A DNA stretch of 61,454 bases, the filler included. It is 7 parts of 7 records of this genome, joined end to end, with 100 filler letters (N's around TTAATTAATTAA, not from the genome) between each part and the next. Parts side by side here need not be neighbours in the genome. Positions count along the whole stretch, not along the records: positions 23,810 to 37,776 come from SRR31156797_6136; 6 more parts are not named here. One strand, written 5' to 3'. The notes beneath the pieces were generated by a model that had not been told where the DNA came from, did not search any database, and saw only the letters and a program-made list of their open reading frames with translations. The translations under genes and the position numbers were made by a program. Positions 23,663 through 37,776 of the stretch are shown here, piece by piece. Numbering within the stretch: the stretch's first letter is position 1; each line of letters starts with the position of its first letter.

Positions 23663-23709
23663 CGCCGGAGGCCTGCCTTGACGGAGGTTTGAACAGGTCC
23701 ACAGCAATG

Positions 23710-23809: not shown

Positions 23810-23810
23810 T

Positions 23811-24740
23811 GCTGTACAACACTCTAACCAACACTCTGACCAATCCACGGACGATCCCGTTCATTGGCTCACCGAAAGACAGGCTATAATTTTAAAATTT
23901 CTAATTCAAAATGAAAGCAATTTAACACGCCTACGCGATGTCACTCAAAACACTGATATTCCTAAAGGAACCGTCCGAGACTCCTTAAGGGTTCTAGAAA
24001 AATACGGATTTATTTCACACCCTGAACGTTTTAGAAGAGGGCGATTTCAAGGGTTTTCTTATTCTCCAAACAAAGAAAAATGTACCCGCTTTATGAAGAT
24101 TAGAGGCGATACCATCCCCTTACGGTTGACCGTACCGCAGACCGTACCGCACGCGGTACAACACTCTGACCGCCCTTTAAATTTTCCAGAAAACCCCACT
24201 CCTATTAAAAAGATAGATAGAAGATATATCTATCTATCTAAAGACGCGCGCGCGACCCTGTTGAATGCGAATCCGGTGCTCGGGGAAATTGGTTTTGAAG
24301 ATCGGCAATTGAAGGAGGTTATCGAAGCCTGGAAAATTTTAGGGCAAGATTTGACGACTCTGCCCGAATCATTGGAAAGGGTTACTTGGGCAATTGAAAA
24401 CGATTCGAAGGACAATCCGAAAATCGATAATGCGCTAAATTACGTTTACGGCTCATTGAAAAAAGGACCTTTTGCAAAATTGAAAGGATTCGTTTCAAAA
24501 AAAGAAAAAGCGCTACAAGAAAAAATTGACGAAGAACAACGCCTAATCGACAAAGAACAACAGATTAAAGAAAAACAGAAAGAACTCAAAAATCTTAAAT
24601 TCGAGAATTGGTGGAATAACTTGACGCAAAAAGAGCGAAATAACATTGACAAAACATCAAAATTCAAATTAACTGAAGGCAGTCCAGTAGCAATCGCACA
24701 TCGTATGAATCATTTTGAAAAGAGGGAAGGGGAGGGTTAA
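23811..24740 (+). CDS. Putative replication initiator with winged-HTH domain (5'-truncated)
   Basis: Frame is open from the contig edge, 94 codons upstream of the listed ORF: LTERQAIILKFL...TRLRDVTQNTDIPKGTVRDSLRVLEKYGFI (wHTH), flanked by 12-bp coding repeats. Confidence 0.6.
   Translation, partial: AVQHSNQHSDQSTDDPVHWLTERQAIILKFLIQNESNLTRLRDVTQNTDIPKGTVRDSLRVLEKYGFISHPERFRRGRFQGFSYSPNKEKCTRFMKIRGDTIPLRLTVPQTVPHAVQHSDRPLNFPENPTPIKKIDRRYIYLSKDARATLLNANPVLGEIGFEDRQLKEVIEAWKILGQDLTTLPESLERVTWAIENDSKDNPKIDNALNYVYGSLKKGPFAKLKGFVSKKEKALQEKIDEEQRLIDKEQQIKEKQKELKNLKFENWWNNLTQKERNNIDKTSKFKLTEGSPVAIAHRMNHFEKREGEG
23817..23852 (+). repeat. 12-bp tandem repeats in the rep-like gene
   Basis: CAACACTCTAAC CAACACTCTGAC CAATCCACGGAC. 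Confidence 0.7.
24129..24170 (+). repeat. 12-bp tandem repeats in the rep-like gene
   Basis: ACCGTACCGCAG ACCGTACCGCAC GCGGTACAACAC TCTGAC; shares GTACAACACTCT with the repeat at the contig start. Confidence 0.7.
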
Positions 24741-24988: not shown

Positions 24989-25064
24989 ACTCAGCTGTTA
25001 AAATTTTTAAATAATCTCGAATTATATTCGAAGATCAAAGCCTTAAACATAAGAAGGGGGTCCT

Positions 25065-26234
25065 GTGAAAATATCATATCGCGCAATCACGCCTTTTTTC
25101 GTACTTGTCTTGCTGTTAATCGTTTTTACCGGAACCGCAAATGCAATAACACAATCGAAATTTTATTATTCTTTCAAAGAACTGCCTGAATTTATTGCAA
25201 TTGATGCTGATGATAATGGCCTTTATGACTATTATCTGATTACCGATAGCCACTGGGTGGCCAGTGTGCATTGTTTTGGTGGTGTTGCCTGTGGTGATGA
25301 AACGCCGGAACTGGAAGCCTATGTTTACGAATGGAAATTGAATCCTGATCTAAGTAAAGAAATAATTTACGACAAACCCATTATGACCTTTTACGGCGAT
25401 AACCACAAAATTGAGTTCGATCTTCCTATCAAAAATTTGCCGTATCGAACTGTTGTGGTCATGAGGTTTTCGAATTGGGATCCTAATGAACCTCAAATAC
25501 ACGGTCGAAGCTATACGTTTTATACACAAAAACCCGACCCGGCGCCAGCCCCCCATATCTGGGAATATTACGATTGGGACGCGAAAGAAACTAAAGTCGG
25601 AATGCAAATGGACGACATTGGTGATCTTTCCGTTTTTAACAATCTGTTCGTCAACGGCGCTTCTGCCTGGGGGGACGCACCGTTTGTGCTTGGTCAGACT
25701 CTTCGAAATCGCGGAATGGTCATTTCTAACATGCATCCCAATTACCCCAAAAATATTTATTTCGGTTGGAATACCGGCCCAGTTCAAGAATTCGCCGAAA
25801 TCTTCGCTTTGCAGGAAGGCATCGCCTGGAAAAATCTTGTTCTGAACCCTCATGGCGGAAATTTGGGTGTCGGGACAAAAAACCCGAGATTCTTAATCGA
25901 TACAGCCGGTGGTGCTTATTGCAACGGGTCCGCCTGGGTCAACGCATCCAGCCGGGAACTGAAACAGGACATCCGGAGCCTTTCTTCAGCTGAAGCATTC
26001 GCCGTGTTGAAAAGATTGGTTCCGAAGGAATACGCCTATAAAGCCGATCCGTCGGAAAAGACCCTTGGCTTCATCGCGGAGGACGTTCCAGATCTGGTCG
26101 CCACGAATGACCGGAAATCCATCAACACGATGGACATCGTTGCCGTATTGACCAAGGTTGTTCAGGACCAGCAAAAGGCCATTGAAAGGCAACAAAGGGA
26201 AATTGAGAAATTGAAAGGTCTGTTGAAGAAATGA
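25065..26234 (+). CDS. Secreted protein with C-terminal intramolecular chaperone (peptidase S74 / tail-fibre chaperone) domain
   Basis: Signal peptide (ANA); GNLGVGTKNP; SSRELKQDI cleavage motif; GFIAEDVP; terminal coiled coil. Confidence 0.85.
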   Translation: MKISYRAITPFFVLVLLLIVFTGTANAITQSKFYYSFKELPEFIAIDADDNGLYDYYLITDSHWVASVHCFGGVACGDETPELEAYVYEWKLNPDLSKEIIYDKPIMTFYGDNHKIEFDLPIKNLPYRTVVVMRFSNWDPNEPQIHGRSYTFYTQKPDPAPAPHIWEYYDWDAKETKVGMQMDDIGDLSVFNNLFVNGASAWGDAPFVLGQTLRNRGMVISNMHPNYPKNIYFGWNTGPVQEFAEIFALQEGIAWKNLVLNPHGGNLGVGTKNPRFLIDTAGGAYCNGSAWVNASSRELKQDIRSLSSAEAFAVLKRLVPKEYAYKADPSEKTLGFIAEDVPDLVATNDRKSINTMDIVAVLTKVVQDQQKAIERQQREIEKLKGLLKK

Positions 26235-26247
26235 AATATATACGAGG

Positions 26248-26778
26248 ATGGTTATACTCATGAGTAAAACAAAACCAAAAAAACCAGTTGAAGGTTTTGA
26301 TGAGATTTATAATATCGTCGAAGTTTCAAAATTTTTAAGAAAAAGTTCACAATGGACGGTTCGGTATGCTGTAGAACTCGGAGGTGTGAAAATTGGTCAT
26401 ACTTGGTTTTTTGCAAAAAGCAACCTCGAAAGAATTTTGAAGGTTAGTGTTGAGAGCGAAAGTCAAATACTTCAATTGAAAAGAAATCGTTTAAACGCAT
26501 TGGCCGCTCTTATTGAATTGTCTGGTTTGAAAGACGATATTCAGAAAATTTCGAGTACGAAAATCCCGTCTGAATTTCTGGAGTTTGATGAAGTTCCTGT
26601 TTTGTTAAAAGATGATGAATTTTTGCCGGTTAAAAAAATCTCTGATTTATTGGGGTTAACCGTCTTTCAAATCCATAGAAACGCCGAGCAGCTTGGTGGT
26701 GTTTTTGTAGGCGGTAAAACCGGACGATGGCTATTTACAAAAAAACGTTTCATGGTTGCATTCCATAGCATCTCGTAA
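26248..26778 (+). CDS. Protein with two excisionase/MerR-like HTH domains
   Basis: Internal duplication: EVSKFL..ELGGVKIGHTWFF and KISDLL..QLGGVFVGGKTGRWLF. Confidence 0.65.
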   Translation: MVILMSKTKPKKPVEGFDEIYNIVEVSKFLRKSSQWTVRYAVELGGVKIGHTWFFAKSNLERILKVSVESESQILQLKRNRLNALAALIELSGLKDDIQKISSTKIPSEFLEFDEVPVLLKDDEFLPVKKISDLLGLTVFQIHRNAEQLGGVFVGGKTGRWLFTKKRFMVAFHSIS

Positions 26779-26789
26779 AAAAAACGCTC

Positions 26790-27371
26790 ATGTCAGAAAT
26801 AAATAGAAAAAAGAAAGAGCAAAATATCAAGGAGATATTTAAAGCCACTTTAGAAATTACAAACAATTATGGTCTCCTTGGTGCGACTATATCCAAAATC
26901 GCTAGTGCAGCTGAACTTTCTCCGGCAACGATTTACATTTATTACAAAAACAAAGAAGATTTAATGATTACAACATTTTCTCAGGTTTATAAAAAAATAG
27001 GTGAAGTCGCAAAAAAAAATCTTGATGAAAAAGGAACGATTGAAGATAAAATAAAACACTGTTACAGAAATATATTAGTTTTTTCAGTAAATAATCGGAA
27101 ATATTATAGTTTCTTTGAACAATTCGTTAACACTCCATATATCCAAAATGTCGATATTGATGAAGTCATAAACACCTTTAGCACTTGTTTATGTGTCATA
27201 AAGGAAGGAATGGCGGCAGGCCTTATCAAACCGGATATTAGCATTGCCAGATCATTTGTTTTTGGTACTATTATTTTTTTATCGAACCCTTACCTTTGCC
27301 CAGGATTTAAATTAACAAATGAAAAAATAGAAATGGCAGCTCAGTCATCTTGGGATGCCATAAGAAAATAA
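26790..27371 (+). CDS. TetR/AcrR-family regulator
   Basis: ATISKIASAAELSPATIYIYYKNKEDL motif. Confidence 0.92.
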   Translation: MSEINRKKKEQNIKEIFKATLEITNNYGLLGATISKIASAAELSPATIYIYYKNKEDLMITTFSQVYKKIGEVAKKNLDEKGTIEDKIKHCYRNILVFSVNNRKYYSFFEQFVNTPYIQNVDIDEVINTFSTCLCVIKEGMAAGLIKPDISIARSFVFGTIIFLSNPYLCPGFKLTNEKIEMAAQSSWDAIRK

Positions 27372-27702
27372 CTTCCCAGGGTAAACACATTCAGAGTTAT
27401 AGACGATGTGTGATACCGTGGAGAAAAAAATGAAAACGCTCAAATTCGCCCCAGGATCGCGGTTTATAAAAAATACGGCCCCTTTTACGTCTCGTCTCCT
27501 TAACGCTTCACACGGCCCCGATTTACTTCAAATTCTATGTAATGCAACACTGTGGAGGAAATATAACATTGTTTTTTTGTAGGGTAGGGCGTTTTGGCCT
27601 TCCGATTATGAAAATTTACATCAATGTTATTAAAAAAATAAACTGTTACATAAGGGGTTTTTAAAGGCAAACGCACATAATATTCGTGAATGTATAGATG
27701 GA

Positions 27703-27739
27703 TTATTCGTGATTTGTAAAAAAAATCTCTTAATACATA
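27703..27739 (+). repeat. 37-bp conserved upstream motif, copy 1 (putative promoter/operator)
   Basis: TTATTCGTGATTTGTAAAAAAAATCTCTTAATACATA; 35/37 identical to 34224-34260. Confidence 0.85.
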
Positions 27740-27810
27740 ATTAACGATGCGGTAAACAACGCAATCTCAAGTCAAAGCTCGGTACGCCGAGCAAGGAAAG
27801 GAGAATCATC

Positions 27811-28593
27811 ATGATCCAATATAATCGTATTGAGGCCGCGCTGGCCTCGCTGGCAGACAGCACGGACCGGAGCATCGCGCTCCGAAATGAGACCTTCACT
27901 TTTAGCGGGCTTAACAGCCCGTACGTTTCACACCAATCTTGTGTAATGTCCCAGGGGCACCATGTCCCTGGGACGGCCGTTTTTTCAAACGGCCGTTACA
28001 CCTTAGTGGTTACATGGAAAAATTCATGGGTTGGGTTTGACCCGGCTCTACCCACTTTTGACGAACCCAACTCACCTCATTGGCGTGCTCTTCCGGCCCA
28101 CATGGTTCAACCATTATTAAAATTTCCGGCCACAGCGCCGGAATGGTTAAGGGATGGCCGCGTCCTGTTTGTTATGGTCCCCGATTTTTTCTCTCATCTC
28201 GATGGTGAGGGAAAACCGGTTTTCCGGCCCACTTGCCGCATCACCGCCACTTTCTCCGATGGGCAGGGTAATGAGAGCCTTCGGGTTCTCGTCGAAGAAG
28301 ATAATTCGGAGGCTGTTGATTCGGCCTCTGGACTCCGGTTGTATAACGGCCGAATCTGGCAAGGCGGTAAAAATGGTAGCCCGCTTAGCCAAGAGCGGGT
28401 CGTAAACGTCGGTAAGGTTGAACCTTCTGATGAATTTGCGGAATTGATTCCGCAAACGCTGGGCGAATTCATCCAGTGTAAAACAGGGCATAAATGCCCT
28501 GACGAAAAAGGGGAATGGAGAGAATGTCCGGACTCTTGTCCGGGAAAAACCGAAAATTGGCACTGGCGGGATGCCAGTGCCGAAGAGGATTAA
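27811..28593 (+). CDS. Hypothetical protein, first gene of the orphan array
   Basis: AAGGAG RBS preceded by hairpin GCTCGG-tacg-CCGAGC; Cys-rich C-terminus. Confidence 0.8.
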   Translation: MIQYNRIEAALASLADSTDRSIALRNETFTFSGLNSPYVSHQSCVMSQGHHVPGTAVFSNGRYTLVVTWKNSWVGFDPALPTFDEPNSPHWRALPAHMVQPLLKFPATAPEWLRDGRVLFVMVPDFFSHLDGEGKPVFRPTCRITATFSDGQGNESLRVLVEEDNSEAVDSASGLRLYNGRIWQGGKNGSPLSQERVVNVGKVEPSDEFAELIPQTLGEFIQCKTGHKCPDEKGEWRECPDSCPGKTENWHWRDASAEED

Positions 28594-28602
28594 AAAATTT
28601 TG

Positions 28603-28642
28603 CCCGCAACTGGCGTAATGCCGGAAGCGGGTTCTTTTTTTT
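28603..28642 (+). terminator. Terminator-like hairpin with T-run
   Basis: CCCGC...GCGGG followed by TTCTTTTTTTT. Confidence 0.55.
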
Positions 28643-28652
28643 GGAGGATATT

Positions 28653-29190
28653 ATGAACTATGAAAAAGTTAAGACGACTCGCCGCCGTCTTGAAGATCAA
28701 ATTCGTCAGGACTGCGCCCGGCTTGAACGGTTAGGCGTTGACCCTGCGGAACTCGTCCAGGCCCTGGAGGGTTGTATGGGGTTTTGGTGGGGTGAATTGC
28801 AGGACATCGAGATTCCGGGGAAATAGCACAAATCGAAGAGAAGAGTACAACCGTGCCGTTCGTGCCGAAATGGCCGGTGGTGAAGGCACTCTCGAATTGT
28901 TGAGGAAGGTCTATTTCTTCCGGAATAAAAAAAAGCTTTATGGGTCAATTACGGATACAAGAAAATTATTGGCTGAAATTGAAACGGAGTTGAACGAAAT
29001 TAGGATGAAAAGAACAGAGAGTTTTATGGGGGTCGAATTCGAGATCGACTGTATCGCAGACAGAGACACATTGCAAAAACGTGCGCAAAACGGCGAACTT
29101 ACGCCGAATGGTTATTATATGGCGCTTAAAGCGTCGTGGAACAACCTGACTGATTCTGAAAAAGCCGAAGAATTGGGGAAAATTGCCTAA
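28653..29190 (+). CDS. Hypothetical protein, apparently frameshifted at G4 (28817-28820)
   Basis: GGAGG RBS then MNYEKVK...IEIPG; removing one G continues into NSTNRREEYNRAVRAEMAG...ELGKIA. Confidence 0.6.
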
Positions 29191-29251
29191 AAAACATGTG
29201 GTCCCCGGCATCCACACCGATACCGGGGGAGGGAAGAAAAGGAGTAACAAA

Positions 29252-29553
29252 ATGAAATTATGTGATGCATGCGGAAAACCAGTAAAAGGCGGGATCGGAA
29301 TTGGATCAGCACTGATGTGCCGAGAATGTGAGCCCCTGGTAGTTGCTGAAATCACCCGGCTCAGGGAGGACGGAAAACCGGTCAATGCCCTGCATATTGC
29401 TAAACGGATTTACCGGGAAAAAACAGTGGTGGAGATTACAGGCTCCGCGAAATCCCCGCCGATCTCTGGGACCGTGCAAAACACCGGGCGGTCGATGATG
29501 GGGATTCGTTGCGGGATCTGATTTTAAAGGCCCTGCATGAGTATTTAAAATAA
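29252..29553 (+). CDS. Zinc ribbon plus ribbon-helix-helix regulator, apparently frameshifted at A6 (29418-29423)
   Basis: AAGGAG RBS; CDAC...CREC; adding one A gives ...DYRLREIPADLWDRAKHRAVDDGDSLRDLILKALHEYLK*, a typical RHH pattern. Confidence 0.7.
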
Positions 29554-29581
29554 CCAGCGCGGGGGATAGCAAGAGGGAGGG

Positions 29582-29836
29582 ATGATCATGGAGGTACGAC
29601 GCATCAAGGGAGTCCAAGGCGGTTATCATATCACCCGTGTTAGAGGCTTCAATCAAGTAAATTACTTGCGGGCACCGGGAGAAAATTTTGAACTAGTTGC
29701 ATCTATTCCGTGCGGACAATTTGGTGGACCGGGGAATCCAGGATCGCCAGACCTTAGCCCGATGGGAAACCCGAATGCAACACGCGATATAAACACAGCG
29801 ATCATGGAACACGCCACTAGGGTCAAGGAGGGATGA
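29582..29836 (+). CDS. Hypothetical protein
   Basis: GGAGGG RBS; stop overlaps the next start. Confidence 0.72.
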   Translation: MIMEVRRIKGVQGGYHITRVRGFNQVNYLRAPGENFELVASIPCGQFGGPGNPGSPDLSPMGNPNATRDINTAIMEHATRVKEG

Positions 29837-30501
29837 TCATGAAAACAGTGAAAAATGACAGAATCCGCGTCACGGTATCAGATGAAAAATGGGAGTCGTA
29901 CCGTGACCATGCAGAGCGTTTGGTCCAGATCAGTGCAAATCGCCAAAATGTTGAGCAAACCATTCGGGGGCTCGTCTTGTCCGACGCAATGAGCAAAATA
30001 GGAAATCGCTCAGAAAAAGAATTGCTGAAAGACGAGAGACCAAGTAAGGCCGAAATTTTCGAAAAAGCGAGATTGATGCTGCGAGACCGTTATTTGGCAG
30101 AACATTGCAAATATGATTTAATGAATGTGCTTCAACGGCTTCATGCCGGCGCACGGCTGTCAACGGGAATGCAAATCGACGTTGATGAGGCAAATGCCTA
30201 TGCAGATGGCATTTTGAGCCCGATTACCCCTGAAAAGGCGACGAAAATCCTCGCCCCATACTTCGGAGAAAAAGAGAAAACAAGCGAGTATCGGCGAGTC
30301 CTTAAAAATACAAACTTACGGATGAATCCGAGCGAATACCCCGAAAAAATTCTGGCTGAGGCCACTGAAATTCTGCGAGAGGAAGTAGAAAACGAACGGA
30401 AATACCGTTCGGCCCGTAGTGACATGGACGGATGGGAAATTGAAATAATCGGCGACATGCCCGAACAAATCGGCATGTGTCGGTTTACCGCCACTCAATA
30501 A
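29833..30501 (+). CDS. Hypothetical protein
   Basis: GGAGG RBS; ATGA coupling; 222-aa ORF. Confidence 0.8.
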   Translation: MIMKTVKNDRIRVTVSDEKWESYRDHAERLVQISANRQNVEQTIRGLVLSDAMSKIGNRSEKELLKDERPSKAEIFEKARLMLRDRYLAEHCKYDLMNVLQRLHAGARLSTGMQIDVDEANAYADGILSPITPEKATKILAPYFGEKEKTSEYRRVLKNTNLRMNPSEYPEKILAEATEILREEVENERKYRSARSDMDGWEIEIIGDMPEQIGMCRFTATQ

Positions 30502-30521
30502 CCAGGAGAAGAAAAAAAACA

Positions 30522-30638
30522 ATGCCAACAAAAGAAGTTTTCTTTGAGAAATACAAGGGTGGAAAACGCAGAGAAGAGTATAATCGGGCCGTCCGAGCTG
30601 AGATGGCAGGTATTGATCGTACTCAGGATAGCGCATAA
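30522..30638 (+). CDS. 38-aa small protein (not in the ORF track)
   Basis: AGGAG RBS; MPTKEVFFEKYKGGKRREEYNRAVRAEMAGIDRTQDSA*; shares 15 identical residues with 28834-28878. Confidence 0.7.
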   Translation: MPTKEVFFEKYKGGKRREEYNRAVRAEMAGIDRTQDSA

Positions 30639-30658
30639 CACACAAGGGAGGAGACGTC

Positions 30659-30868
30659 ATGAAAGCGTGTAACGATCAAGAACAATGGGTGGACACTGGA
30701 CGGTGGGTTGCGTGGAATAACGATAGCCACAAAATTGAGGCGGATAATTTCGCTACAGCACATTCGTGTTTTAACTGGATTGATAAAAAATTTCCAGAAG
30801 ATGCAAACGGCGTCCAGGAAAATGTCAGGCCAGAATGGTTTGACTATGAAATTTCAGATGATCATTAA
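30659..30868 (+). CDS. Small acidic, Trp-rich hypothetical protein
   Basis: GGAGGAG RBS; 69 aa. Confidence 0.75.
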   Translation: MKACNDQEQWVDTGRWVAWNNDSHKIEADNFATAHSCFNWIDKKFPEDANGVQENVRPEWFDYEISDDH

Positions 30869-30905
30869 AAAACGGGGCCGTTAAAATCGAAAAACTTAGA
30901 GGAGA

Positions 30906-31381
30906 ATGATAATGTATCAGATAGCCGTTGCAGGGCATAAAATTGAGATTAAAAACATCGTGCAACAATACGATGAATGGGATTTCGTAACAGCGGAAGT
31001 AACGATCAACAGCGGTAAGCCGGTCGAATTCTACGCATATATTAATGATGGGGTTATTGACCGCTCTTCCGACAGCCATACAGCAACACGGATGCTGATC
31101 AGTTTGAATTCAAGGCAATGCTTGAAAGCCTGGAGGCTGAATCGGAAATCCTGCATAGAATTTCCGATGTTATCGATAAGGAAATTTCTTCACCATTGTC
31201 GGAAGAGGAAATTTCCGAAAAACTAAAATCCGCGGGCTTTAGGCTTTTGGGCCGTGACCCGTACCACAACAACGAGTGGCATGTGGCCCGGTGGATTGAT
31301 AATCATAGTTCAACGACAGTGGGGTACTACAACACCCTGAGAGAAATCGAAGCTGCGTTGACTTCAGGAGAAATGGGGTAA
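30906..31381 (+). CDS. Acidic hypothetical protein, apparently frameshifted near 31067
   Basis: GAGGAG RBS; adding one T joins ...VIDRS to FRQPYSNTDADQFEFKAMLESLEAESE...GEMG*, merging ORFs 30906 and 31118. Confidence 0.6.
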
Positions 31382-31986
31382 TGACTGACCCCCAGAACCA
31401 GAAAAGGAAAGAGGCGTACCGTGAGGCCGTGAACGCTAACGGCCTCAATAAAGCTGTTTTGACAGGTCTGCATCAAACTACGGAGAATACAGTTGATAAA
31501 TGGTTGTATTCTCAGAAACGGTATCCATCGTTTTTGGCATGTTGTGAGCTATACGCGTATTTGCGGATCATAAAAGGGGATATCCCAAATGATCTGTTTA
31601 CACTGTTTCAATCCCCTCGCCGAACAGCGCAGGCGTTTGTGAAATCCCAAAAAAAACGTAAGAGAACGGGGGGGCGCCCCCAAAAAGTCTACATTTTCGA
31701 CGGCAAAGAAATGGCAGTCAGCGAAATTGCCAAGGAGCTCGGTTTGCCACGAAAAACAACGTACGGCCGCATCTACGCTGCCAAATATACCAACATCGAC
31801 AAACCGGATGTCAGCGATATCCGACACCGGAAAAAAGTTGGCGTTACTATAGATGTAGAACAGGCACGCGCGTTGAGAAAGCAGGGGATGTCGTATGAAC
31901 AAATAGCTGAGAAATTAGGGGTAACACGACATACAGTGTATTTTCGGCTTAATTATAAGAAAATTTCTCACGTGAGGGAGGGATGA
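31381..31986 (+). CDS. Multi-HTH DNA-binding protein
   Basis: TTENTVDKWL, VSEIAKELGLPRKTTYGRI and GMSYEQIAEKLGVTRHTVYFRL HTH-like segments. Confidence 0.8.
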   Translation: MTDPQNQKRKEAYREAVNANGLNKAVLTGLHQTTENTVDKWLYSQKRYPSFLACCELYAYLRIIKGDIPNDLFTLFQSPRRTAQAFVKSQKKRKRTGGRPQKVYIFDGKEMAVSEIAKELGLPRKTTYGRIYAAKYTNIDKPDVSDIRHRKKVGVTIDVEQARALRKQGMSYEQIAEKLGVTRHTVYFRLNYKKISHVREG

Positions 31987-32174
31987 TCATAAAATACAAA
32001 TTAATCAGCGTCAAAGGGACGGAAGAATTTTCAGGGTCTGAGGCGGACGCTATTGAGGCCGCCATTGAAATGGAAGAAAATTTTCAACCCGCCTTCGGCG
32101 TGACGGTCGAGGATGCGGAAGGTGACACCGTCGCTGAAATACGCGACGGGAAATTGTATGATTGGGATGACTAA
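31983..32174 (+). CDS. Small, very acidic hypothetical protein
   Basis: GGAGGG RBS; ATGA coupling; about a quarter of residues are D/E. Confidence 0.78.
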   Translation: MIIKYKLISVKGTEEFSGSEADAIEAAIEMEENFQPAFGVTVEDAEGDTVAEIRDGKLYDWDD

Positions 32175-32207
32175 CCCCGCACACCCCCACTGGGGAAGGA
32201 GATAATC

Positions 32208-32639
32208 ATGGATTGGGCGCAAGAATTAATAGAGGATATTAAAGAAAAGGACCTGGCAGGATTTGAAGCGACAGATAGATTCTGCATTGCATACAAGGAT
32301 GGCGATTCAACGGATGCATGGGAAAAATTAGAGAAAGAGTCAATCCAGAAAGAAGACTTTGAAGGTTATATCCTCCTGCTTTTTGAGGATGGTTCGTGTT
32401 TCGCAGAGTGGAACGAAGGGACGGATAAATTTTATTCCCATGTGGGGGATTTGGAAGCGGAAGATGATGATGTTGAAAAACGGTTATCGCCATACCTGTA
32501 CGACGAAGACAATTTTATTGAAGCCCGGTGGACCCCTAACGGATCCATCGAATACCGTGTAAAGGAGCGTAATGACGGGTGGCAAATTACACCGCTTCAA
32601 GAGCACCCGGGAGAAAGTGTGTTGGAGTGGTTGCCGTAA
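32208..32639 (+). CDS. Very acidic hypothetical protein
   Basis: AAGGAG RBS; about a quarter of residues are D/E. Confidence 0.8.
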   Translation: MDWAQELIEDIKEKDLAGFEATDRFCIAYKDGDSTDAWEKLEKESIQKEDFEGYILLLFEDGSCFAEWNEGTDKFYSHVGDLEAEDDDVEKRLSPYLYDEDNFIEARWTPNGSIEYRVKERNDGWQITPLQEHPGESVLEWLP

Positions 32640-32676
32640 ACCACCGAATTGTTTTTACCGAAAGGAGACCTTTGGG

Positions 32677-33429
32677 ATGAATGATTTAATTACAATCGGC
32701 AATAATGGACGAGAAATTTCGGATACAAACTATTTCGATACCGAGCACGCAGCTCAGGGGTTTTTCTTCGCTTCTACGAACGCAGGCGCTGTTCGCCTGC
32801 TGGTGCCCGATTCTCAAATTGCCGTTATCACTGAATTTAAAACGGCCGAATACGTGATCTTATCCCGTGGTCCTTGGCCGGACCTTGGCTTTCGTCGTCC
32901 TGAAGGAATTGAATTGTTGTTCGAGGATTATAGCGATAACCCATTTGCGTTACATATGCCCCCCGAACAATTTGACATGCTCCCGGATGGAATAGGGGAG
33001 TGGGTTTTTGCGGTATGGACACGCAACGGCAAGCAATTTGAGTGTCCGTTAAAATATCGGAAAGTAGACCGAATTCCGTACATGAAAGAATGGATAGTGA
33101 AACGGGTTTTCCCGTTGAGAGTAGTATTGTCCGTAACGACAAAGCATTTGTTGACAGAGCCTGAAAATGACAAGGATAACGGAATAGGCGATATTGTCGA
33201 ATTAATTAGCTATATGGTGGGCATGAAGCTTTTTGATAGCCAATTGCCCAGTTTTGCGGAAAAATGCAGGACGGCTTTGTTATCTCAATATCCGGATCTG
33301 GCCTATGTTGATGATAAAGTGATTAATTCAATAAAGGCCGTTAATCCGGAAAATTGGATTAAGGTTTTGCTTGACAAATGTACGTCTGAATTCGGTTTAA
33401 AAGCAGAATATGAGGTGGATAAAATCTAA
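32677..33429 (+). CDS. Two-domain mobile-element hypothetical protein
   Basis: AAGGAG RBS before MNDLITI; N-domain TNYFDTEHA..NAGAVRLLVPD..ILSRGPW..ELLFED; C-domain FPLRVVLSVTT..QLP..LLSQYPDL. Confidence 0.78.
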   Translation: MNDLITIGNNGREISDTNYFDTEHAAQGFFFASTNAGAVRLLVPDSQIAVITEFKTAEYVILSRGPWPDLGFRRPEGIELLFEDYSDNPFALHMPPEQFDMLPDGIGEWVFAVWTRNGKQFECPLKYRKVDRIPYMKEWIVKRVFPLRVVLSVTTKHLLTEPENDKDNGIGDIVELISYMVGMKLFDSQLPSFAEKCRTALLSQYPDLAYVDDKVINSIKAVNPENWIKVLLDKCTSEFGLKAEYEVDKI

Positions 33430-34187
33430 TGAGACCTGTCGAACATTTGAACGATATCGAGGGAAGATATCCCAACGCTTGGAAATTGGTTGACAAGTTC
33501 CGTCGTGACCGGGGGAAAACCCTCCCGAATTGGCCGGAATGGTGTTTTCTACCAATGTCCGGTTGGTACGCAATTGTCAGCGATGTAGGTGATAAGTTAA
33601 CTGTGCCGTTCGATAGGGCTCTCGATATAGGGCGCCTTGCCGCTCTTGGGACATGGCGATATTCTCAAGGCGTTTACCGTTTTGATTCGAATATTTTTGA
33701 TACGCTGTGGAAGACCCCAATTACGGGAAATCTTCCAACGAATATGTTTTTAAGATTGCCGGAATGGTGTTTATATATCGAAATTCCAGGGCAAAAGAAT
33801 ATGCATGGTTTCTGGGTCCACCTGGAATCGGACACAAAAGATCATCGCAAAGAGTTACGGCTTTTAATGGACCTTGACGACGGGTTAATGCCGATGCCGA
33901 TACATATCGGTGATTGGCCCCTGGAAACCGCAATAAAAAAAGCTATTGTGGAAAGTTATCACCACATTCCGATGAAAACCACGATGGAAGTTCCGGGGAA
34001 GGACATAATGAAAGCATTTTCTGAAAGTATGGCACCGATGGTTTCCTTAGTCCTTTATCTCTGTTCAGAAAAACCGGATTTCGGAAAACCCACCCGCCCG
34101 GGGGTAAAAAAACACGGGTCTCGTTTGTTTCCGGCAAAAGGCCCCACTATTTGGCATATCGGTGATGAAAAACGGAAAAACCATTAG
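33429..34187 (+). CDS. AcrVA2/FinQ-family-like protein, C-terminally shortened
   Basis: Colinear motifs LGTWRYSQGVYRFD, PTNMFLRLPEWCLYIE, HGFW, LVLYLCSEKPD and PTIWHIG match my recollection of AcrVA2 (YGAWRNTLGIYQLD, PTSIFLNLPDWCVYVD, KGFW, LLWLCVAEPD, PFIYQIG). Confidence 0.72.
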   Translation: MRPVEHLNDIEGRYPNAWKLVDKFRRDRGKTLPNWPEWCFLPMSGWYAIVSDVGDKLTVPFDRALDIGRLAALGTWRYSQGVYRFDSNIFDTLWKTPITGNLPTNMFLRLPEWCLYIEIPGQKNMHGFWVHLESDTKDHRKELRLLMDLDDGLMPMPIHIGDWPLETAIKKAIVESYHHIPMKTTMEVPGKDIMKAFSESMAPMVSLVLYLCSEKPDFGKPTRPGVKKHGSRLFPAKGPTIWHIGDEKRKNH

Positions 34188-34223
34188 GGATAAGTATGGT
34201 GAAAAGCGCCTCTGTTGAAAGAT

Positions 34224-34260
34224 TTATTCGTGATTTGTAAAAAAAAACCCTTAATACATA
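34224..34260 (+). repeat. 37-bp conserved upstream motif, copy 2
   Basis: TTATTCGTGATTTGTAAAAAAAAACCCTTAATACATA. Confidence 0.85.
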
Positions 34261-34295
34261 TACAGAACGATAAAAATCTAAAAGGGAGAAATATT

Positions 34296-34580
34296 ATGAA
34301 ATACGAAGTTTCTCAGATATTTGCAAGCCTTGGAGACCCAAGTACCAAAACATTTGATAGCTGGGTGGCCGCTCAACACTATGCCAATGAATTAAAAGCC
34401 GACATAACGGACATGATTTCAGGTTGGGAAAACGCCCCCGCAAGTCAAGTCGGTTTTTCAAATGAATTTGAGGCATGGGACGAAGCTTACGAAATGTCCG
34501 ATGGTGGTGTGTTCTTTTCAGGGGCCGCTGCTCAAATGATCGCAAAAAAAGCAATTAAGATCGAAAAATTTAATGATTAA
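34296..34580 (+). CDS. Small acidic hypothetical protein
   Basis: AAGGGAG RBS before MKYEVSQ; lies downstream of motif copy 2. Confidence 0.78.
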   Translation: MKYEVSQIFASLGDPSTKTFDSWVAAQHYANELKADITDMISGWENAPASQVGFSNEFEAWDEAYEMSDGGVFFSGAAAQMIAKKAIKIEKFND

Positions 34581-34649
34581 CCCCGTTCCCCACCACCGAT
34601 GGTGGGGCATTTACATAAATTATAGGTATGCAACCGCTTTTCTCCTTAT

Positions 34650-34687
34650 CCCCCCGGATCCGAAGCTGATCCGGGGGGGTCTTTTCT
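34650..34687 (+). terminator. GC-rich terminator hairpin
   Basis: CCCCCCGGATC-cgaagct-GATCCGGGGGG followed by GTCTTTTCT. Confidence 0.75.
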
Positions 34688-34722
34688 CGTTTATAGTCCG
34701 GTTTTTTTAAAGGCAAAAAAAC

Positions 34723-35073
34723 GTGTTAACTGCTGAAGATTTTAAACCAGAAATTTTATGTAAAAAATTTCTTACTTGGTATCAGGAAAGAGAAGATTTT
34801 ATCGAAAAATCCGAATACCGGGAAGATCAACGGTATACTGTTTATATCTTCAGAAAGGATAAATATGGCGCCTATCTTTTGCGCGGGGGAAAACTTTGCT
34901 GGTCCGATGTTCCAGAAGACCAGCTCAATTATAATCGCATCCAGCAAAACGACCTTTTCATAAATTCTAAAAAACTCGGCAAAGTGGTTGTCTATGATCG
35001 ACAAGGTTCAGGAACAACCCTTGTCGGAAAATCCTTCGAATCAGCGATTGAAAAGATTAATCGTGATTTGTAA
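34723..35073 (+). CDS. Hypothetical protein
   Basis: 116-aa ORF with GTG start; its stop lies within partial motif copy 3. Confidence 0.6.
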   Translation: MLTAEDFKPEILCKKFLTWYQEREDFIEKSEYREDQRYTVYIFRKDKYGAYLLRGGKLCWSDVPEDQLNYNRIQQNDLFINSKKLGKVVVYDRQGSGTTLVGKSFESAIEKINRDL

Positions 35074-35077
35074 AAAA
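35055..35077 (+). repeat. Partial third copy of the conserved motif
   Basis: GATTAATCGTGATTTGTAAAAAA. Confidence 0.65.
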
Positions 35078-35445
35078 GAGAATGATTCTGGAAACCACGA
35101 GTGCTTAACCACCATAAAAATTAACAAAATTTTTATAGCCAAAAAAAGTGTATCTGTACGTTGTCACTCCCATAACAAAAACTTATTAAAACAGAGGCAA
35201 TAATTTCTTGACAAAATGGTTGAATCGATAGACGATCGTTATGTTGTGTTGATATAAATATTAGATTATTTTTTGATCGGAATACGTTGCGATAATATTA
35301 AAGGTAAAATATCCAAAAAAAACAATAAACCCGGATTTCAGATATTCCTAAATAAAATTCCGTACTTAAAACTTTGGAAGGATGTCTAATAATATAGTTT
35401 CGATTCAATTTTTGATTTAATGAAAAAAATAAAGGAGCCATAAAA

Positions 35446-35823
35446 ATGAACATCTCACCAGGAACTATAAAAAAAATGTATATCCCGCAGAACAAATTAG
35501 TTATTTTTACGGTTATCGGGTTGTCGACTTTTGATCAGTTTATGAATATTGCAGTTTCGTTTTTTGAAAAAAAAATCTTAAAACGGGTGATATGGGATTT
35601 TCGTCATGGCGCAGTTGGGCCATTTTCATCTCAACAACTGGATTCCCTGTTTTTAGCGAAAAATACAAAAAAGGATTTAAAATGCTTTATCATTGCTCCG
35701 GAAAATAAAACTTATCAAACAGAGGACAATTTCCGCTTACTTAACAAAATGAAAGATCTTCCGGTGAATGTTAAAGTAGGACGTAATGTAACGTTTGAAG
35801 AACGTACTTGGTTATTTTCGTAA
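35446..35823 (+). CDS. Small alpha/beta (STAS/SEC14-like) hypothetical protein
   Basis: AAGGAG RBS; VIWDFR and FIIAP strand pattern. Confidence 0.55.
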   Translation: MNISPGTIKKMYIPQNKLVIFTVIGLSTFDQFMNIAVSFFEKKILKRVIWDFRHGAVGPFSSQQLDSLFLAKNTKKDLKCFIIAPENKTYQTEDNFRLLNKMKDLPVNVKVGRNVTFEERTWLFS

Positions 35824-35845
35824 AATTCTTTTAGGGGAAGCAACA

Positions 35846-36427
35846 ATGCAAAGTTCAAACGCCGCTTATTCTCTAAAACCCCTTGAAATTAAAAAACTGA
35901 TTCGGGCCTGTAGGACGCTTCGGGAAAGAATTATCATCAAACTCATGGCCTATTCAGGATTACGCCGTGAAGAGGTGGCCAACCTCAAAATCGAAAAAAT
36001 TGATTGGGAAAGGAATCGGATTAGTTTTATCGGAAAATATCGTCTCGATGGGTCGGTCCCGATTGCTCCGGACCTCATGCAGGACATCCTGTTTTACCTG
36101 GCCGGCAGAAAAGAGGGGCCGGTTTTCCCTTCGAGAAAAAATAAAAAGAACTGCATTTGTCTGGTTCAGATTAATCGGATCGTTTCTGATATTGGGGTCA
36201 GAGCCAAAATCAAAAGTCCGAATCCTAAAAGTAAGACGCGCCATGTAACGCCTCATTTACTCAGGCATTCCTTTGCGCGTATGGCTAAAGATTCGGGATT
36301 AACGACGGAGGACGTTCAAAAGTTGCTCCGTCATAGCTCATTTGCTACAACGATGAACCTTTACGGCACAAAATCTTTTTCGGATGTTCAGGAAAGTTAT
36401 GAAGAAAAATTCCTGAACTATATGTGA
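35846..36427 (+). CDS. Tyrosine recombinase (catalytic domain only)
   Basis: SGLRREE, PHLLRHSFA and LRHSS.ATTMNLY catalytic motifs; start reassigned to MQSSN. Confidence 0.93.
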   Translation: MQSSNAAYSLKPLEIKKLIRACRTLRERIIIKLMAYSGLRREEVANLKIEKIDWERNRISFIGKYRLDGSVPIAPDLMQDILFYLAGRKEGPVFPSRKNKKNCICLVQINRIVSDIGVRAKIKSPNPKSKTRHVTPHLLRHSFARMAKDSGLTTEDVQKLLRHSSFATTMNLYGTKSFSDVQESYEEKFLNYM

Positions 36428-36526
36428 CCAAAAAGCCTCAGGGCCCCAAATGCGGTTTTTCGGGGCTTTTTTCAAATAAAAATGTTTATTTTAAGCGGGT
36501 TATCATATGGTCCCTTTGATTAAAAA

Positions 36527-36820
36527 ATGATCATTTCTAATAATCCAAAATGGCCGGACTCTAAGCCCATGTGGGTGGTGATGCGGGAAAAAGAACGCAA
36601 CTCTAAAACGGAGAATACACCCGAATCAATGAGGCAAAAGCTTCGGGCTTTTCGGCAGGCCTATCCCTGGGCGTCCAGGTGGCAATGTGTTTTAGCGGTA
36701 AAATTAAGTGACTGCAAAACAAGAGAAGAATTTGAACAAAAAATCGAAAATTTCAGAGACCAGCAAAAGTATGTTTTGTCTAAGATTTTCGAGAACGCGT
36801 GGAAAGAGATACCAAAATGA
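36527..36820 (+). CDS. Hypothetical protein
   Basis: 97-aa ORF; stop overlaps the next ATG. Confidence 0.55.
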   Translation: MIISNNPKWPDSKPMWVVMREKERNSKTENTPESMRQKLRAFRQAYPWASRWQCVLAVKLSDCKTREEFEQKIENFRDQQKYVLSKIFENAWKEIPK

Positions 36821-37137
36821 AATTCTTAACCGACGTAAAAGAAAAACGATTTATTTGTCTCGAATGTCACGCAACGGCCCGTGTTGTCACTCTTGAAGAA
36901 ATAGATGTGGCCTGGTGTGATACTTTCGAATGTGTCAACAACAACACAATGGTTAATTTAGACGGTCGGTGGGAAGAATTCGAACATGAAGATATTTTCG
37001 AATTAGACGAAATCCAAGGCCTGTTGTTCAAAGAGGTCTTCGTTAATTCGTGGGAGAACCGAGTCCAGGGTAACTCTTCAAAAGCCGCTCGGCCTCGCTC
37101 CCATCTGTCTCTTGTGAGTCCACATATAAGAATCTAG
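36817..37137 (+). CDS. Hypothetical protein with CxxC motif
   Basis: ATGA coupling at MKFLTDV; CLECH. Confidence 0.55.
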   Translation: MKFLTDVKEKRFICLECHATARVVTLEEIDVAWCDTFECVNNNTMVNLDGRWEEFEHEDIFELDEIQGLLFKEVFVNSWENRVQGNSSKAARPRSHLSLVSPHIRI

Positions 37138-37163
37138 ATCCGAGCACCCCTTCATCCGGATTT

Positions 37164-37421
37164 ATGATCACCGCCGTTTGGCATGGCCTGGAACCGGTTG
37201 CCATGCTTTCGGAGAGATCGTCGCCCCCGATAATTGTAATCAAAAATTTACCTTTTTCGGTAGAAAAATCACCCCTGTTTTTAACTCAAAAACACTCAAA
37301 ATTCGAAGCCCCCTATTATAAAGGAGTACTTCTTTATAATAGGGGAACTTTTTTTCAGCCTGTGGCCATCTTTATTGGGCCGCTCGATCCATCGACCGTT
37401 TATCAATCGTTTGCAACATGA
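37164..37421 (+). CDS. Hypothetical protein
   Basis: 85-aa ORF on the element's coding strand. Confidence 0.4.
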   Translation: MITAVWHGLEPVAMLSERSSPPIIVIKNLPFSVEKSPLFLTQKHSKFEAPYYKGVLLYNRGTFFQPVAIFIGPLDPSTVYQSFAT

Positions 37422-37526
37422 AACGTCCTGGCGCGGTCCATTTTAGCATCGCCGCGAGCGACAACATTGTGAAAATCGCTAATTATATCCAATCAAAATG
37501 ATTTAAAATCGAAGAGGTTTTGTAAA

Positions 37527-37776
37527 ATGAAAGGCATACGCGAAAAAATTATATCTTTGTTTGAAATGGATGTGGCAGGTCGGGGTTATTGTTCCAAAGA
37601 AATCCACGAACTTTTCGGTTTTAGTCGAAGTAGAATCGATGAAATCTTGTCCGATCTTTTCAAGAAAGGCTGGTTGATCCAAAAAGACCCAAGCAAAATA
37701 AGGGGTAAAAATCGGAATATTTTGTATAAAAAACCCGGTCTTATTTCCGGTCTTATTTCCGGTCTTAACCCGGTCT
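37527..37776 (+). CDS. Winged-HTH protein (3'-truncated), running into tandem repeats
   Basis: GAGG RBS; SKEIHELFGFSRSRIDEILSDLFKKGWL. Confidence 0.7.
37735..37776 (+). repeat. ~12-bp tandem repeats at the contig end
   Basis: CCGGTCTTATTT CCGGTCTTATTT CCGGTCTTAAC CCGGTCT. Confidence 0.8.

What the first reader, a model, noticed from the sequence alone, without database searches (positions are those of the whole stretch)
27700..35080. Candidate anti-defence gene array on a small mobile element
Seen: about 15 co-oriented, mostly short orphan genes with strong RBSs and coupled stops/starts. Several are strongly acidic, and they are interleaved with an RHH regulator and a multi-HTH regulator. 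The array includes an AcrVA2/FinQ-like gene and carries copies of a conserved 37-bp motif upstream of two of its genes. Known: anti-CRISPR/anti-defence genes cluster as small acidic ORFs next to HTH or RHH (Aca-type) repressors. Inference: the neighbours are uncharacterised inhibitors of host defence.
Basis: partly seen in the sequence, partly recalled or inferred. Interest (0 to 1): 0.85.

Follow-up and report, generated by a model that had tools for sequence, protein, structure and literature searches.

The report
Plasmid accessory operon, possible anti-defence genes
A 14-kb plasmid-like contig carries a one-directional run of 17 small, mostly unknown genes of the kind plasmids use to establish themselves in new hosts, but its one recognisable anti-defence gene is cut short and two others are frameshifted, so an anti-defence role is plausible, not shown.

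Summary
There are 17 co-oriented ORFs (27811-35073). 14 of 17 have Shine-Dalgarno motifs, four junctions are coupled, and 7 of 17 have pI ≤5. There is a multi-HTH protein, and a 37-nt motif (35/37 identical) lies upstream of o01 and o16, with a partial third copy.

New facts:
- The window is seven contigs joined by N linkers. The array lies on a 13,967-bp contig with a plasmid-type backbone gene.
- The AcrVA2/FinQ-like gene (o15) is a true homologue. It keeps the N-terminal W/D residues but ends at residue 252 and lacks the C-terminal HxR motif that AcrVA2 needs.
- The RHH is readable only through a -1 frameshift. o09/o10 look frameshifted, and o07 is a 38-aa fragment of an o03-like gene.
- Three or four families recur on plasmids or ICEs, some beside ArdA, ArdB, RadC, DUF4942, SSB and ParB genes: o14 N-domain (898 clusters, no PDB/BFVD fold match), o06 (no PDB fold match), o15 and, weakly, o03.
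- The remaining genes are orphans.

Best reading: a horizontally assembled, partly decayed establishment or anti-defence-type operon. It is a new member of a known kind. Inhibitor activity is untested.

The parts
23811..24740 (+). u1x: backbone gene, open at the contig's left end. It has a winged HTH and is homologous to proteins encoded next to ParA on Desulfobacterota plasmids.
   Evidence: Open frame from the first base of the contig. Weak wHTH Pfam hits. tblastn finds 5 plasmid records. Pairwise E 4e-18 over 257 aa with L006:707-1885. ParA is adjacent in L006 and nearby in L010.
26790..27371 (+). u5: TetR-family regulator directly upstream of the array.
   Evidence: Pfam TetR_N, TetR_HI_0893_C and TetR_C_10.
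27694..27739 (+). Motif copy 1. It holds a sigma-70-like TTGTAA-16-CATAAT and lies 71 nt before the o01 start. A second TATTCGTGA word lies 24 nt upstream.
   Evidence: Promoter scan hit at 27714-27741, 9 of 12 matches. Sequence read.
27811..28593 (+). o01: 260 aa, Cys-rich C-terminus, rare family.
   Evidence: No Pfam, PHROG, NCBIfam or PDB match. 4 homologues in 5.8 billion clusters. 0 plasmid records.
28653..28826 (+). o02: 57 aa, pI 4.99, orphan.
28795..29190 (+). o03: about 131 aa, start uncertain (GTG at 28792 or further upstream). Its conserved N-terminal block is shared with o07 and with a 125-aa ORF that follows the o14N homologue on a Desulfosarcina plasmid.
   Evidence: 62-nt repeat at 28830-28891 and 30563-30624, 76% identical, with differences mainly at third codon positions. 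Pairwise E 2e-9 over 36 aa. That ORF is L006 9426-9803. No hit in the whole plasmid collection.
29252..29553 (+). o04: zinc-ribbon-like N-part (29252-29521). An Arc/CopG-like RHH follows, readable only in the -1 frame (29404-29553) after the A6 run at about 29416-29424.
   Evidence: Sequence read. The RHH frame hits phrog_6506 Arc-like repressor, E 2e-5. Codon-usage frame switch at about 29410-29420. No Pfam hit for the RHH piece.
29582..29836 (+). o05: 84 aa, orphan.
29833..30501 (+). o06: 220-222 aa. N-terminal beta-strand plus helices (RHH-like), an all-alpha body and an invariant C-terminal motif. The family occurs in ICE/plasmid arrays.
   Evidence: 15 homologues. Alignment A3. AF2 pLDDT 89.5. 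No PDB fold match, best E 0.46. 15 metagenome loci. L016 and L023 contexts.
30522..30638 (+). o07: 38-aa ORF, an N-terminal fragment paralogous to o03.
   Evidence: No family hits in the right frame.
30659..30868 (+). o08: 69 aa, pI 4.40, orphan.
30906..31381 (+). o09 (30906-31226) and o10 (31118-31381) overlap by 109 nt. The coding signal leaves the o09 frame at about 31065-31080 and continues in the o10 frame, so this is probably one frameshifted gene. o10 has pI 4.73.
   Evidence: No family hits.
31381..31986 (+). o11: 201 aa, basic (pI 10.0), DNA-binding protein with at least two HTHs.
   Evidence: Pfam HTH_23 1.8e-11, Sigma70_r4_2, HTH_7 and others. NCBIfam excisionase-type HTH, 29.9 bits against a cut-off of 28.8. 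One plasmid homologue of its N-half sits in an array of small hypothetical genes.
31983..32174 (+). o12: 63 aa, pI 4.05, orphan.
32208..32639 (+). o13: 143 aa, pI 4.12, orphan.
   Evidence: No homologue found. No usable Atlas hit. No family.
32677..33429 (+). o14: 250 aa. The N-domain (about 5-140) belongs to a large plasmid-borne family with a confident fold model that has no PDB or BFVD match. The C-domain is DUF7736.
   Evidence: 1145 plasmid records, 984 of them typed conjugative. 898 representative clusters at E≤1e-3. AF2 pLDDT 95.4. No PDB or BFVD match. DUF7736 at 1.8e-11. phrog_15963.
33429..34187 (+). o15: AcrVA2/FinQ-family homologue, 252 aa, C-terminally truncated. It lacks the HxR motif region.
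34215..34260 (+). Motif copy 2. It starts 28 nt after the o15 stop and ends 35 nt before the o16 start.
   Evidence: This copy did not pass the promoter scan.
34296..34580 (+). o16: 94 aa, pI 4.39, orphan. Single-gene unit.
   Evidence: Weak phrog_7196 hit, E 0.002.
34648..34690 (+). Intrinsic-terminator-like hairpin (13 pairs, 9 GC) followed by a T run, after o16.
34723..35073 (+). o17: 116 aa, GTG start, no SD. Its last codons lie inside motif copy 3.
35048..35077 (+). Motif copy 3 (partial, 87% identical to copy 2 over 30 nt).
35846..36427 (+). d2: short (about 194 aa) tyrosine recombinase downstream of the array.
   Evidence: Pfam Phage_integrase 2.5e-22. phrog_1 and phrog_216. NCBIfam Xer and integron models score far below their cut-offs.

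Best explanation
The array is an accessory operon of a plasmid-like element. It was assembled by horizontal transfer from genes that plasmids and ICEs carry in their establishment or anti-defence islands.

Shown:
- o01-o15 form a tightly packed, SD-led, partly translationally coupled block of 6.4 kb.
- A 37-nt motif precedes this block. A second copy of the motif precedes the single-gene unit o16, which ends in a strong terminator-like hairpin.

Inferred:
- The motif is a shared promoter/operator (TTGTAA-16-CATAAT in copy 1). It lets one of the element's own DNA-binding proteins (TetR u5, the o04 RHH, the RHH-like o06 or the multi-HTH o11) switch both units together, probably soon after entry into a cell.

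By family, the distal gene o15 is a target-specific silencer of the AcrVA2/FinQ type. In AcrVA2, the protein binds the nascent N-terminus of one target protein and triggers loss of its mRNA. This copy keeps the N-terminal binding part but has lost the C-terminal HxR tail, so at best it can bind. Together with two frameshifts and one gene fragment, this says the block is partly decayed cargo.

Some of the intact small acidic orphans (o08, o12, o13, o16) and the two structured unknown families (o06, o14) may be inhibitors of host defence or of rival elements. I put that at roughly 35-40% for at least one gene. Nothing here shows it.
For: - Anatomy. Motif. Promoter-like hit inside copy 1 and terminator after o16.
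- Plasmid-type backbone: u1x is homologous to proteins encoded next to ParA on Desulfobacterota plasmids.
- Contig continuity: a second assembly of the probable source sample gives one identical 13,967-bp contig at depth 91 with no joints.
- o15 = AcrVA2 family. 32 plasmid and 15 phage records hold homologues.
- In the HMMER alignment, the W and D equivalent to AcrVA2 W79/D89 are kept (W76 is invariant in A2).
- The o14N family is on 1145 plasmid records, 984 of them typed conjugative.
- The o14N homologue sits directly upstream of the o15 homologue on Pectobacterium pLPa1526, between ArdA/DUF4942 and ArdK/NikB.
- On a Desulfosarcina plasmid, o14N lies among DUF4942, SSB, antirestriction and ParB genes and is followed by an o03-like ORF.
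- One o06 homologue lies in a co-oriented array with RadC and an Antirestrict (PF03230) gene, upstream of ParA-ParB-RepA. The same ParA-ParB-RepA synteny occurs in L023.
- Mechanism of AcrVA2 and the essential H286/R288/H291: passages of bioRxiv 10.1101/2022.11.29.518452.
- Anti-defence islands on plasmids: passages of PMC11541004.
Against: - The only gene with a known anti-defence relative lacks the motif that relative needs.
- o04/RHH and o09/o10 look frameshifted, and o07 is a fragment.
- None of the other 16 proteins hits a known anti-defence family.
- There is no relaxase, oriT, SSB, methylase or psiB on the contig.
- The 439-nt upstream spacer shows no unusual ssDNA fold (z -0.37 and +0.25).
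- Promoter-like sites are not enriched overall (24 found, 19.3±4.1 expected), and motif copy 2 did not pass the scan.
- Families do not co-occur: o06 is absent from the 4 plasmids that carry o14N or o15 homologues, and none of the 15 o06 loci carries another array gene.
- 3 of 5 o14N contexts are not leading-region-like.
- GC of the block (46.8%) exceeds that of the rest of the contig (39%) only moderately.
Confidence: 0.5

Rival explanations
1. Decaying passenger DNA. The block is a remnant of a larger plasmid or ICE region captured by this element. It is no longer under selection and has no current function.
For: - o15 is truncated right at the block's right edge, 28 nt before motif copy 2.
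- Two frame switches lie inside ORFs, at 91x depth and with no variant calls.
- o07 is a 38-aa fragment.
- The o03 start is unclear.
Against: - 12-13 ORFs are intact, with strong SD motifs and coupled junctions.
- The codon-usage signal is positive along the ORFs.
- The o03/o07 repeat differs mainly at third codon positions.
- A second family member (L008) ends at the same point as o15, so a short form may be a natural variant.
Confidence: 0.22
2. Inter-element competition or plasmid housekeeping rather than anti-defence. The genes regulate or exclude other mobile elements (FinQ-like fertility inhibition), or control the element's own maintenance.
For: - The AcrVA2 family includes FinQ, a fertility inhibitor, and most homologues occur without Cas12a (passages).
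- There are three or four DNA-binding proteins in or beside the array.
- o06 homologues sit just upstream of parA-parB-repA.
- In E. coli IncF plasmids, o14N is coupled to a tyrosine recombinase.
Against: - No target element is known.
- The same homologue contexts also hold classical antirestriction genes.
Confidence: 0.18
3. Cassette array. The three motif copies are recombination sites for the downstream tyrosine recombinase d2, and [o01-o15] and [o16-o17] are exchangeable cassettes.
For: - Three direct copies bracket two units.
- Copies 2 and 3 also resemble each other as the 3' end of an o17-like reading frame.
- The recombinase gene lies 770 nt beyond the last copy.
- There is a sharp GC step at copy 1.
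Against: - The motif has no inverted-repeat core (no inverted repeat reported there).
- d2 scores far below the integron-integrase cut-offs (46.4 against 265).
- The o15 truncation argues for an illegitimate event, not a clean site-specific one.
- One exact match of the 19-mer core in viral contigs is probably chance.
Confidence: 0.07
4. Phage or satellite early region.
For: - o15 and the o14 C-domain match PHROG families.
- u3 carries a tail-fibre-type S74 chaperone domain.
Against: - There are no capsid, terminase, portal or other structural hits on the contig.
- u3 is read from its sequence as having an N-terminal signal-peptide-like segment.
- The backbone gene has plasmid relatives.
Confidence: 0.03

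Closest known systems
AcrVA2 (Moraxella bovoculi anti-CRISPR, PDB 7CI1/7CI2) and its family, which includes FinQ
   Same: o15 is a sequence homologue (E 5.4e-8 to 7ci1 over residues 24-121; phrog_6160 E 8.4e-38). The W and D that align with AcrVA2 W79/D89 are kept. Like most family members it sits on a mobile element.
   Different: - It has 252 aa instead of about 320-350.
- The conserved C-terminal H-x-R...H block, present in 4 of 4 full-length homologues aligned, is absent from o15 and from the whole window.
- The target is unknown, and no Cas12a was looked for.
- Relatedness to FinQ itself is taken from the preprint and was not tested here.
Anti-defence islands in plasmid leading regions (Samuel et al. 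2024, PMC11541004)
   Same: A co-oriented cluster of small genes on a plasmid-like element. Homologues of o14N and o15, and possibly of o03, lie in such islands beside ArdA, DUF4942, SSB, antirestriction and ParB genes.
   Different: No oriT, relaxase, SSB, methyltransferase, psiB or umuCD boundary was found on this contig. There is no Frpo-like ssDNA fold. Only one known anti-defence family is present, and it is truncated.
acr-aca operons (anti-CRISPR genes with an HTH or RHH autorepressor)
   Same: Small acidic ORFs share an operon with HTH and RHH-type DNA-binding genes, and a conserved motif lies at the promoter.
   Different: - The array is far longer (15 genes) than typical acr-aca operons (recalled).
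- The HTH protein is 201 aa with several HTHs and sits mid-operon.
- The RHH is out of frame.
- The operator-like words are direct repeats, not inverted.
- No Aca profile library was available.
ICE accessory region upstream of parA-parB-repA that holds RadC and ArdB-type antirestriction genes (metagenome loci L016, L023)
   Same: It contains an o06 homologue within a co-oriented run of small genes.
   Different: No other array gene is shared. The window's contig has no ParA, ParB or RPA-type RepA.

Membership tests
AcrVA2/FinQ family | Significant sequence similarity to AcrVA2 | tested here: met
   phmmer against the PDB: 7ci1_A at E 5.4e-8, query 24-121 aligned to chain 23-123. phrog_6160 at E 8.4e-38 over 9-247.
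AcrVA2/FinQ family | N-terminal residues of moderate functional importance (W79, D89 in AcrVA2) | tested here: met
   In the alignment, the W of the GxWR block and the D that ends the Y-x-x-D block align with o15 W76 and D86. My count of the chain numbering is offset by one from the paper's. W76 is invariant in A2.
AcrVA2/FinQ family | C-terminal HxR motif (H286, R288, H291), essential for AcrVA2 activity | tested here: not met
   o15 stops where the 4 full-length homologues continue into the conserved H-L-R-R-A-H-W-H block. tblastn with those 4 homologues finds no C-terminal piece anywhere in the window.
AcrVA2/FinQ family | Full length of about 320-350 aa with three domains | tested here: not met
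   o15 has 252 aa. L001 has 332, L002 352 and L007 340.
AcrVA2/FinQ family | Lowers the mRNA and protein of a specific target (Cas12a for AcrVA2) | not testable with these tools
   This needs expression assays.
acr-aca operon | HTH or RHH regulator gene in the same operon | tested here: met
   o11 HTH families. Arc-like RHH, but only in a shifted frame.
acr-aca operon | Regulator belongs to a described Aca family | not tested
   No Aca profile library was on hand. Pfam and NCBIfam give only generic HTH hits.
acr-aca operon | Inverted-repeat operator at the promoter | tested here: inconclusive
   Copy 1 has two direct TATTCGTGA words 24 nt apart. No inverted repeat was reported at the motif.
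Plasmid leading-region anti-defence island | Lies next to oriT or a relaxase, on the first-transferred strand | tested here: not met
   No relaxase or mobilisation family was found among the contig's ORFs. The contig may be incomplete.
Plasmid leading-region anti-defence island | Known anti-defence, SSB, methyltransferase or SOS-inhibitor genes clustered | tested here: not met
   Only the truncated AcrVA2-like gene is present. There are no other hits.
Plasmid leading-region anti-defence island | ssDNA promoter (Frpo/ssi-like hairpin) | tested here: not met
   DNA folds of 27372-27810 on both strands give z -0.37 and +0.25. No comparison with known Frpo sequences was possible.
Integron-like cassette array | Integron-type integrase and attC-like folded sites | tested here: not met
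   TIGR02249 scores 46.4 bits against a cut-off of 265, and PRK15417 scores 27.2 against 435. The motif has no palindromic structure.

The most novel reading that the evidence does not exclude
The array is a working anti-defence arsenal made almost entirely of unseen inhibitors. Within it, the o14 N-domain (about 900 clusters, mostly on conjugative plasmids, with a confident fold that has no match in PDB or BFVD) is a partner or alternative effector module of AcrVA2/FinQ-type silencers. It is translationally coupled to one here and on Pectobacterium plasmids. The tail-less o15, like a second tail-less copy in a Methylococcaceae MAG, would then be a natural 'binder-only' short form that blocks its target without mRNA decay.
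Probability: 0.12. Interest if true: 0.75.

Novelty: new member of a known kind. Interest (0 to 1): 0.4.

Why it matters
If some of these orphans inhibit defence systems, they would add new inhibitor families from an uncultured lineage. The o14 N-domain family is on more than a thousand sequenced plasmids, most of them typed conjugative and from enterobacteria, so a function for it would explain a common plasmid gene. The tail-less AcrVA2-like copies raise a testable question. Can the target-binding part of this family act alone? As it stands, this is a candidate list, not a discovery.

Tried and rejected
- DNA-level search of 27700-35080 against plasmids and phages: no match.
- No whole genome is held for the window.
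- o01 scan of viral contigs: none.
- Motif 19-mer in viral contigs: one exact match. It was judged chance and not followed.
- o13: no homologue and no usable Atlas hit.
- o06 Atlas hits all score below 0.85 and are not usable.
- PDB sequence searches of o14, o01 and o06: nothing significant.
- Fold searches of the o06 and o14N models against the PDB, and of o14N against BFVD: best E 0.46, 0.16 and 0.042, with TM ≤0.38, so no match.
- Domain fusions of o14N: 1 of 10 longer homologues has a Pfam domain (DUF4262). This is uninformative.
- Rfam on the contig: 0 matches.
- tblastn against plasmids: o03 and o16 give none.
- RNA evidence: no RNA holder listed.
- Complex prediction of o15 with the o14 N-domain: no verdict.
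- Circular junction d5 to u1x: d5 shows no similarity to the N-terminus of the u1x homologue. Circularity therefore stays a guess.
- Pfam PF26125 (named in earlier notes) is not in the library at hand. This may be why o15 has no Pfam hit.
- o07 was first searched in a wrong frame and then redone.
- Supplementary tables of the two papers were not seen. They may list o14N-, o06- or o15-like families.
- DUF7736 is found in no paper of the searched library.

Full report
**What the window is.** The window is not one molecule. Six linkers of the form N44-TTAATTAATTAA-N44 split it into seven contigs. Their GC ranges from 31% to 62%. It is therefore a draft or binned assembly, and no host can safely be named. 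No whole genome is held. The finding lies on contig 23810-37776, which is 13,967 bp at 42.7% GC. A second assembly of the one public run that holds this DNA (probably its source, so not independent) gives a single identical 13,967-bp contig. Its depth is 91, it shows no joints or variants, and both ends run into short tandem 12-mers. The junctions around the array are therefore not obvious assembly chimeras. The contig ends are repeat breaks.

**The observation.** Between 27811 and 35073 there are 17 ORFs, all on the + strand.
- 14 of 17 have an SD-like motif within 25 nt of the start, against 4 of 10 flanking genes.
- Four junctions are coupled: o05/o06, o10/o11, o11/o12 and o14/o15.
- 7 of 17 have pI ≤5.0.
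- Only o11 (HTH families) and o14 (DUF7736) reach a Pfam cut-off.
- The 37-nt motif is real. Copies at 27703-27739 and 34224-34260 are 35/37 identical, and the similarity extends to 27694 and 34215. A partial third copy lies at 35048-35077. Its 14-mer core occurs 3 times against 0.11 expected.
- Copy 1 lies 71 nt before o01 and copy 2 lies 35 nt before o16.
- Copy 1 contains TTGTAA-16-CATAAT. Copy 2 did not pass that scan, and promoter-like sites are not enriched overall.
- A strong terminator-like hairpin follows o16.

**The anchor gene.** o15 is a true AcrVA2-family homologue (7ci1, E 5.4e-8; phrog_6160, E 8.4e-38). Homologues occur on 32 plasmid and 15 phage records. Aligned with four full-length plasmid or MAG homologues, o15 stops exactly where they continue into a conserved histidine/arginine block. 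tblastn with those homologues finds no such piece anywhere in the window.

According to the preprint on AcrVA2 (passages read), H286, R288 and H291 in that C-terminal block are needed for activity. W79 and D89 matter moderately. Tail mutants still bind Cas12a. The family, including FinQ, is widespread on mobile elements that mostly lack Cas12a. o15 keeps the W and D equivalents but not the tail. The gene ends 28 nt before motif copy 2. A Methylococcaceae MAG copy (L008) ends at the same point. A short form may therefore be more than an accident, but that is a guess.

**Other signs of decay.**
It is the -1 frame continuation of the zinc-ribbon-like o04 after an A6 run. It matches an Arc-like PHROG at E 2e-5.
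- A codon-usage scan trained on the long array ORFs switches frame there. It also switches at about 31065-31080, between o09 and o10, which overlap by 109 nt.
- o07 is a 38-aa N-terminal fragment paralogous to o03. The two share a 62-nt stretch at 76% identity whose differences fall mainly at third codon positions.
- The o03 start is unclear. The scan over o03 is partly circular, because part of o03 was in the training set.

**Families that recur elsewhere.**
- *o14 N-domain.* It occurs on 1145 plasmid records, 984 of them typed conjugative, and in 898 representative clusters. The AF2 model is very confident (pLDDT 95.4) and has no PDB or BFVD match.
  - Two of the 5 contexts read are leading-region-like. 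On Pectobacterium pLPa1526 it overlaps the start of the o15 homologue, between ArdA/DUF4942 and ArdK/NikB. On a Desulfosarcina plasmid it lies among DUF4942, SSB, antirestriction and ParB genes and is followed by an o03-like ORF.
  - The other three contexts are a P1-like phage-plasmid, an IncF colicin region where it is coupled to a recombinase, and a Geoalkalibacter plasmid.
- *o06.* It has 15 homologues. The model is confident (pLDDT 89.5), mostly helical with an RHH-like N-terminus, and has no PDB match.
  - Of 15 metagenome loci, five are at least 4.8 kb. Two of these (L016, L023) place the homologue upstream of ParA-ParB-RepA. L016 also has RadC and an Antirestrict-family gene in the same co-oriented run.
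  - The other three long loci show IS21/helicase, radical-SAM or no annotation.
- *o11.* Its N-half has one plasmid homologue, inside another run of small hypothetical genes on a Pectobacterium plasmid that also carries an o15 homologue.
- *No shared synteny.* No array gene other than the query was found in any o06 locus. o06 is absent from the four plasmids with o14N or o15 homologues. The combination seen here is unique among what was searched.
- *Orphans and rare families.* o01 has 4 homologues and o13 has none. o02, o05, o08, o12, o16 and o17 have no family hits.

**The element.** The gene at the left contig end (u1x) is open at the contig edge. It is homologous (E 4e-18 over 257 aa) to proteins encoded beside ParA on Desulfobacterota plasmids. 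This supports a plasmid-type backbone. A TetR gene, a short tyrosine recombinase and a secreted protein with an S74 chaperone domain complete the contig. No relaxase, replication initiator of a known family, SSB or methylase was found. The upstream spacer has no unusual ssDNA fold. The array is moderately GC-richer (46.8%) than the rest of the contig (39%). The GC step is sharp at motif copy 1 and gradual on the right.

**Reading.** The best-supported picture is a horizontally assembled accessory operon of the establishment or anti-defence type on a plasmid-like element. It is probably driven, together with o16, from a duplicated promoter/operator motif. It is partly decayed. The anti-defence idea rests on association only.

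Rivals are:
- pure decay;
- inter-element competition or regulation (FinQ-like);
- a recombinase-served cassette array;
- a phage early region.

The kind of system is known (PMC11541004, passages read). The members are new and untested.

Noticed in passing
window 17714-23709: This contig has 61.8% GC and encodes a 903-aa Laminin_G_3 protein. The neighbouring contigs have 31-47% GC. The assembly or bin is compositionally mixed, so linking the plasmid-like contig to a host is unsafe.
   Followed up: partly
window 27947-27975: A 13-pair hairpin (8 GC pairs) followed by a T run lies 136 nt inside the o01 coding region. It is terminator-like and could be an attenuator or chance. The o01 N-terminus is covered by a homologue at 97% coverage, so it is coding.
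   Followed up: no
window 28830-28891 and 30563-30624: A 62-nt coding repeat (76% identical) encodes the same N-terminal peptide block in o03 and in the 38-aa o07. The same block starts an unannotated 125-aa ORF on a Desulfosarcina plasmid (L006 9426-9803), where the record annotates a 324-aa gene on the opposite strand.
   Followed up: partly
L008 4643-5512: A Methylococcaceae MAG copy of the AcrVA2-like gene ends at the same alignment position as o15 and also lacks the C-terminal motif. The remaining 290 nt of that contig hold no match to it.
   Followed up: partly
L005 4846-6043: On an E. coli IncF plasmid, the o14N homologue is directly followed (2-nt gap) by a 260-aa site-specific integrase, next to colicin M and V immunity genes. 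One record even annotates the o14N match as 'phage integrase family protein'.
   Followed up: no
A3 (o06 family), P0013-P0019: Seven of 15 o06 homologues carry an extra conserved C-terminal segment of about 45 aa. One is named 'putative transposon-encoded protein' by its source. Two others (P0005, P0007) have an N-terminal extension of about 140 aa.
   Followed up: no
window 25065-26234: This 389-aa protein has a hydrophobic N-terminal segment that looks like a signal peptide, and a C-terminal Peptidase_S74 (tail-fibre or endosialidase chaperone) domain. It lies on a contig with no other phage structural gene.
   Followed up: no
window 23817-23843 and 37735-37767: Both contig ends lie in 12-nt tandem repeats inside open reading frames (u1x and d5, both with winged HTHs). 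The Desulfosarcina homologue of u1x also has a repetitive N-terminal region. Whether d5 and u1x are one gene across a circular junction was not resolved.
   Followed up: partly
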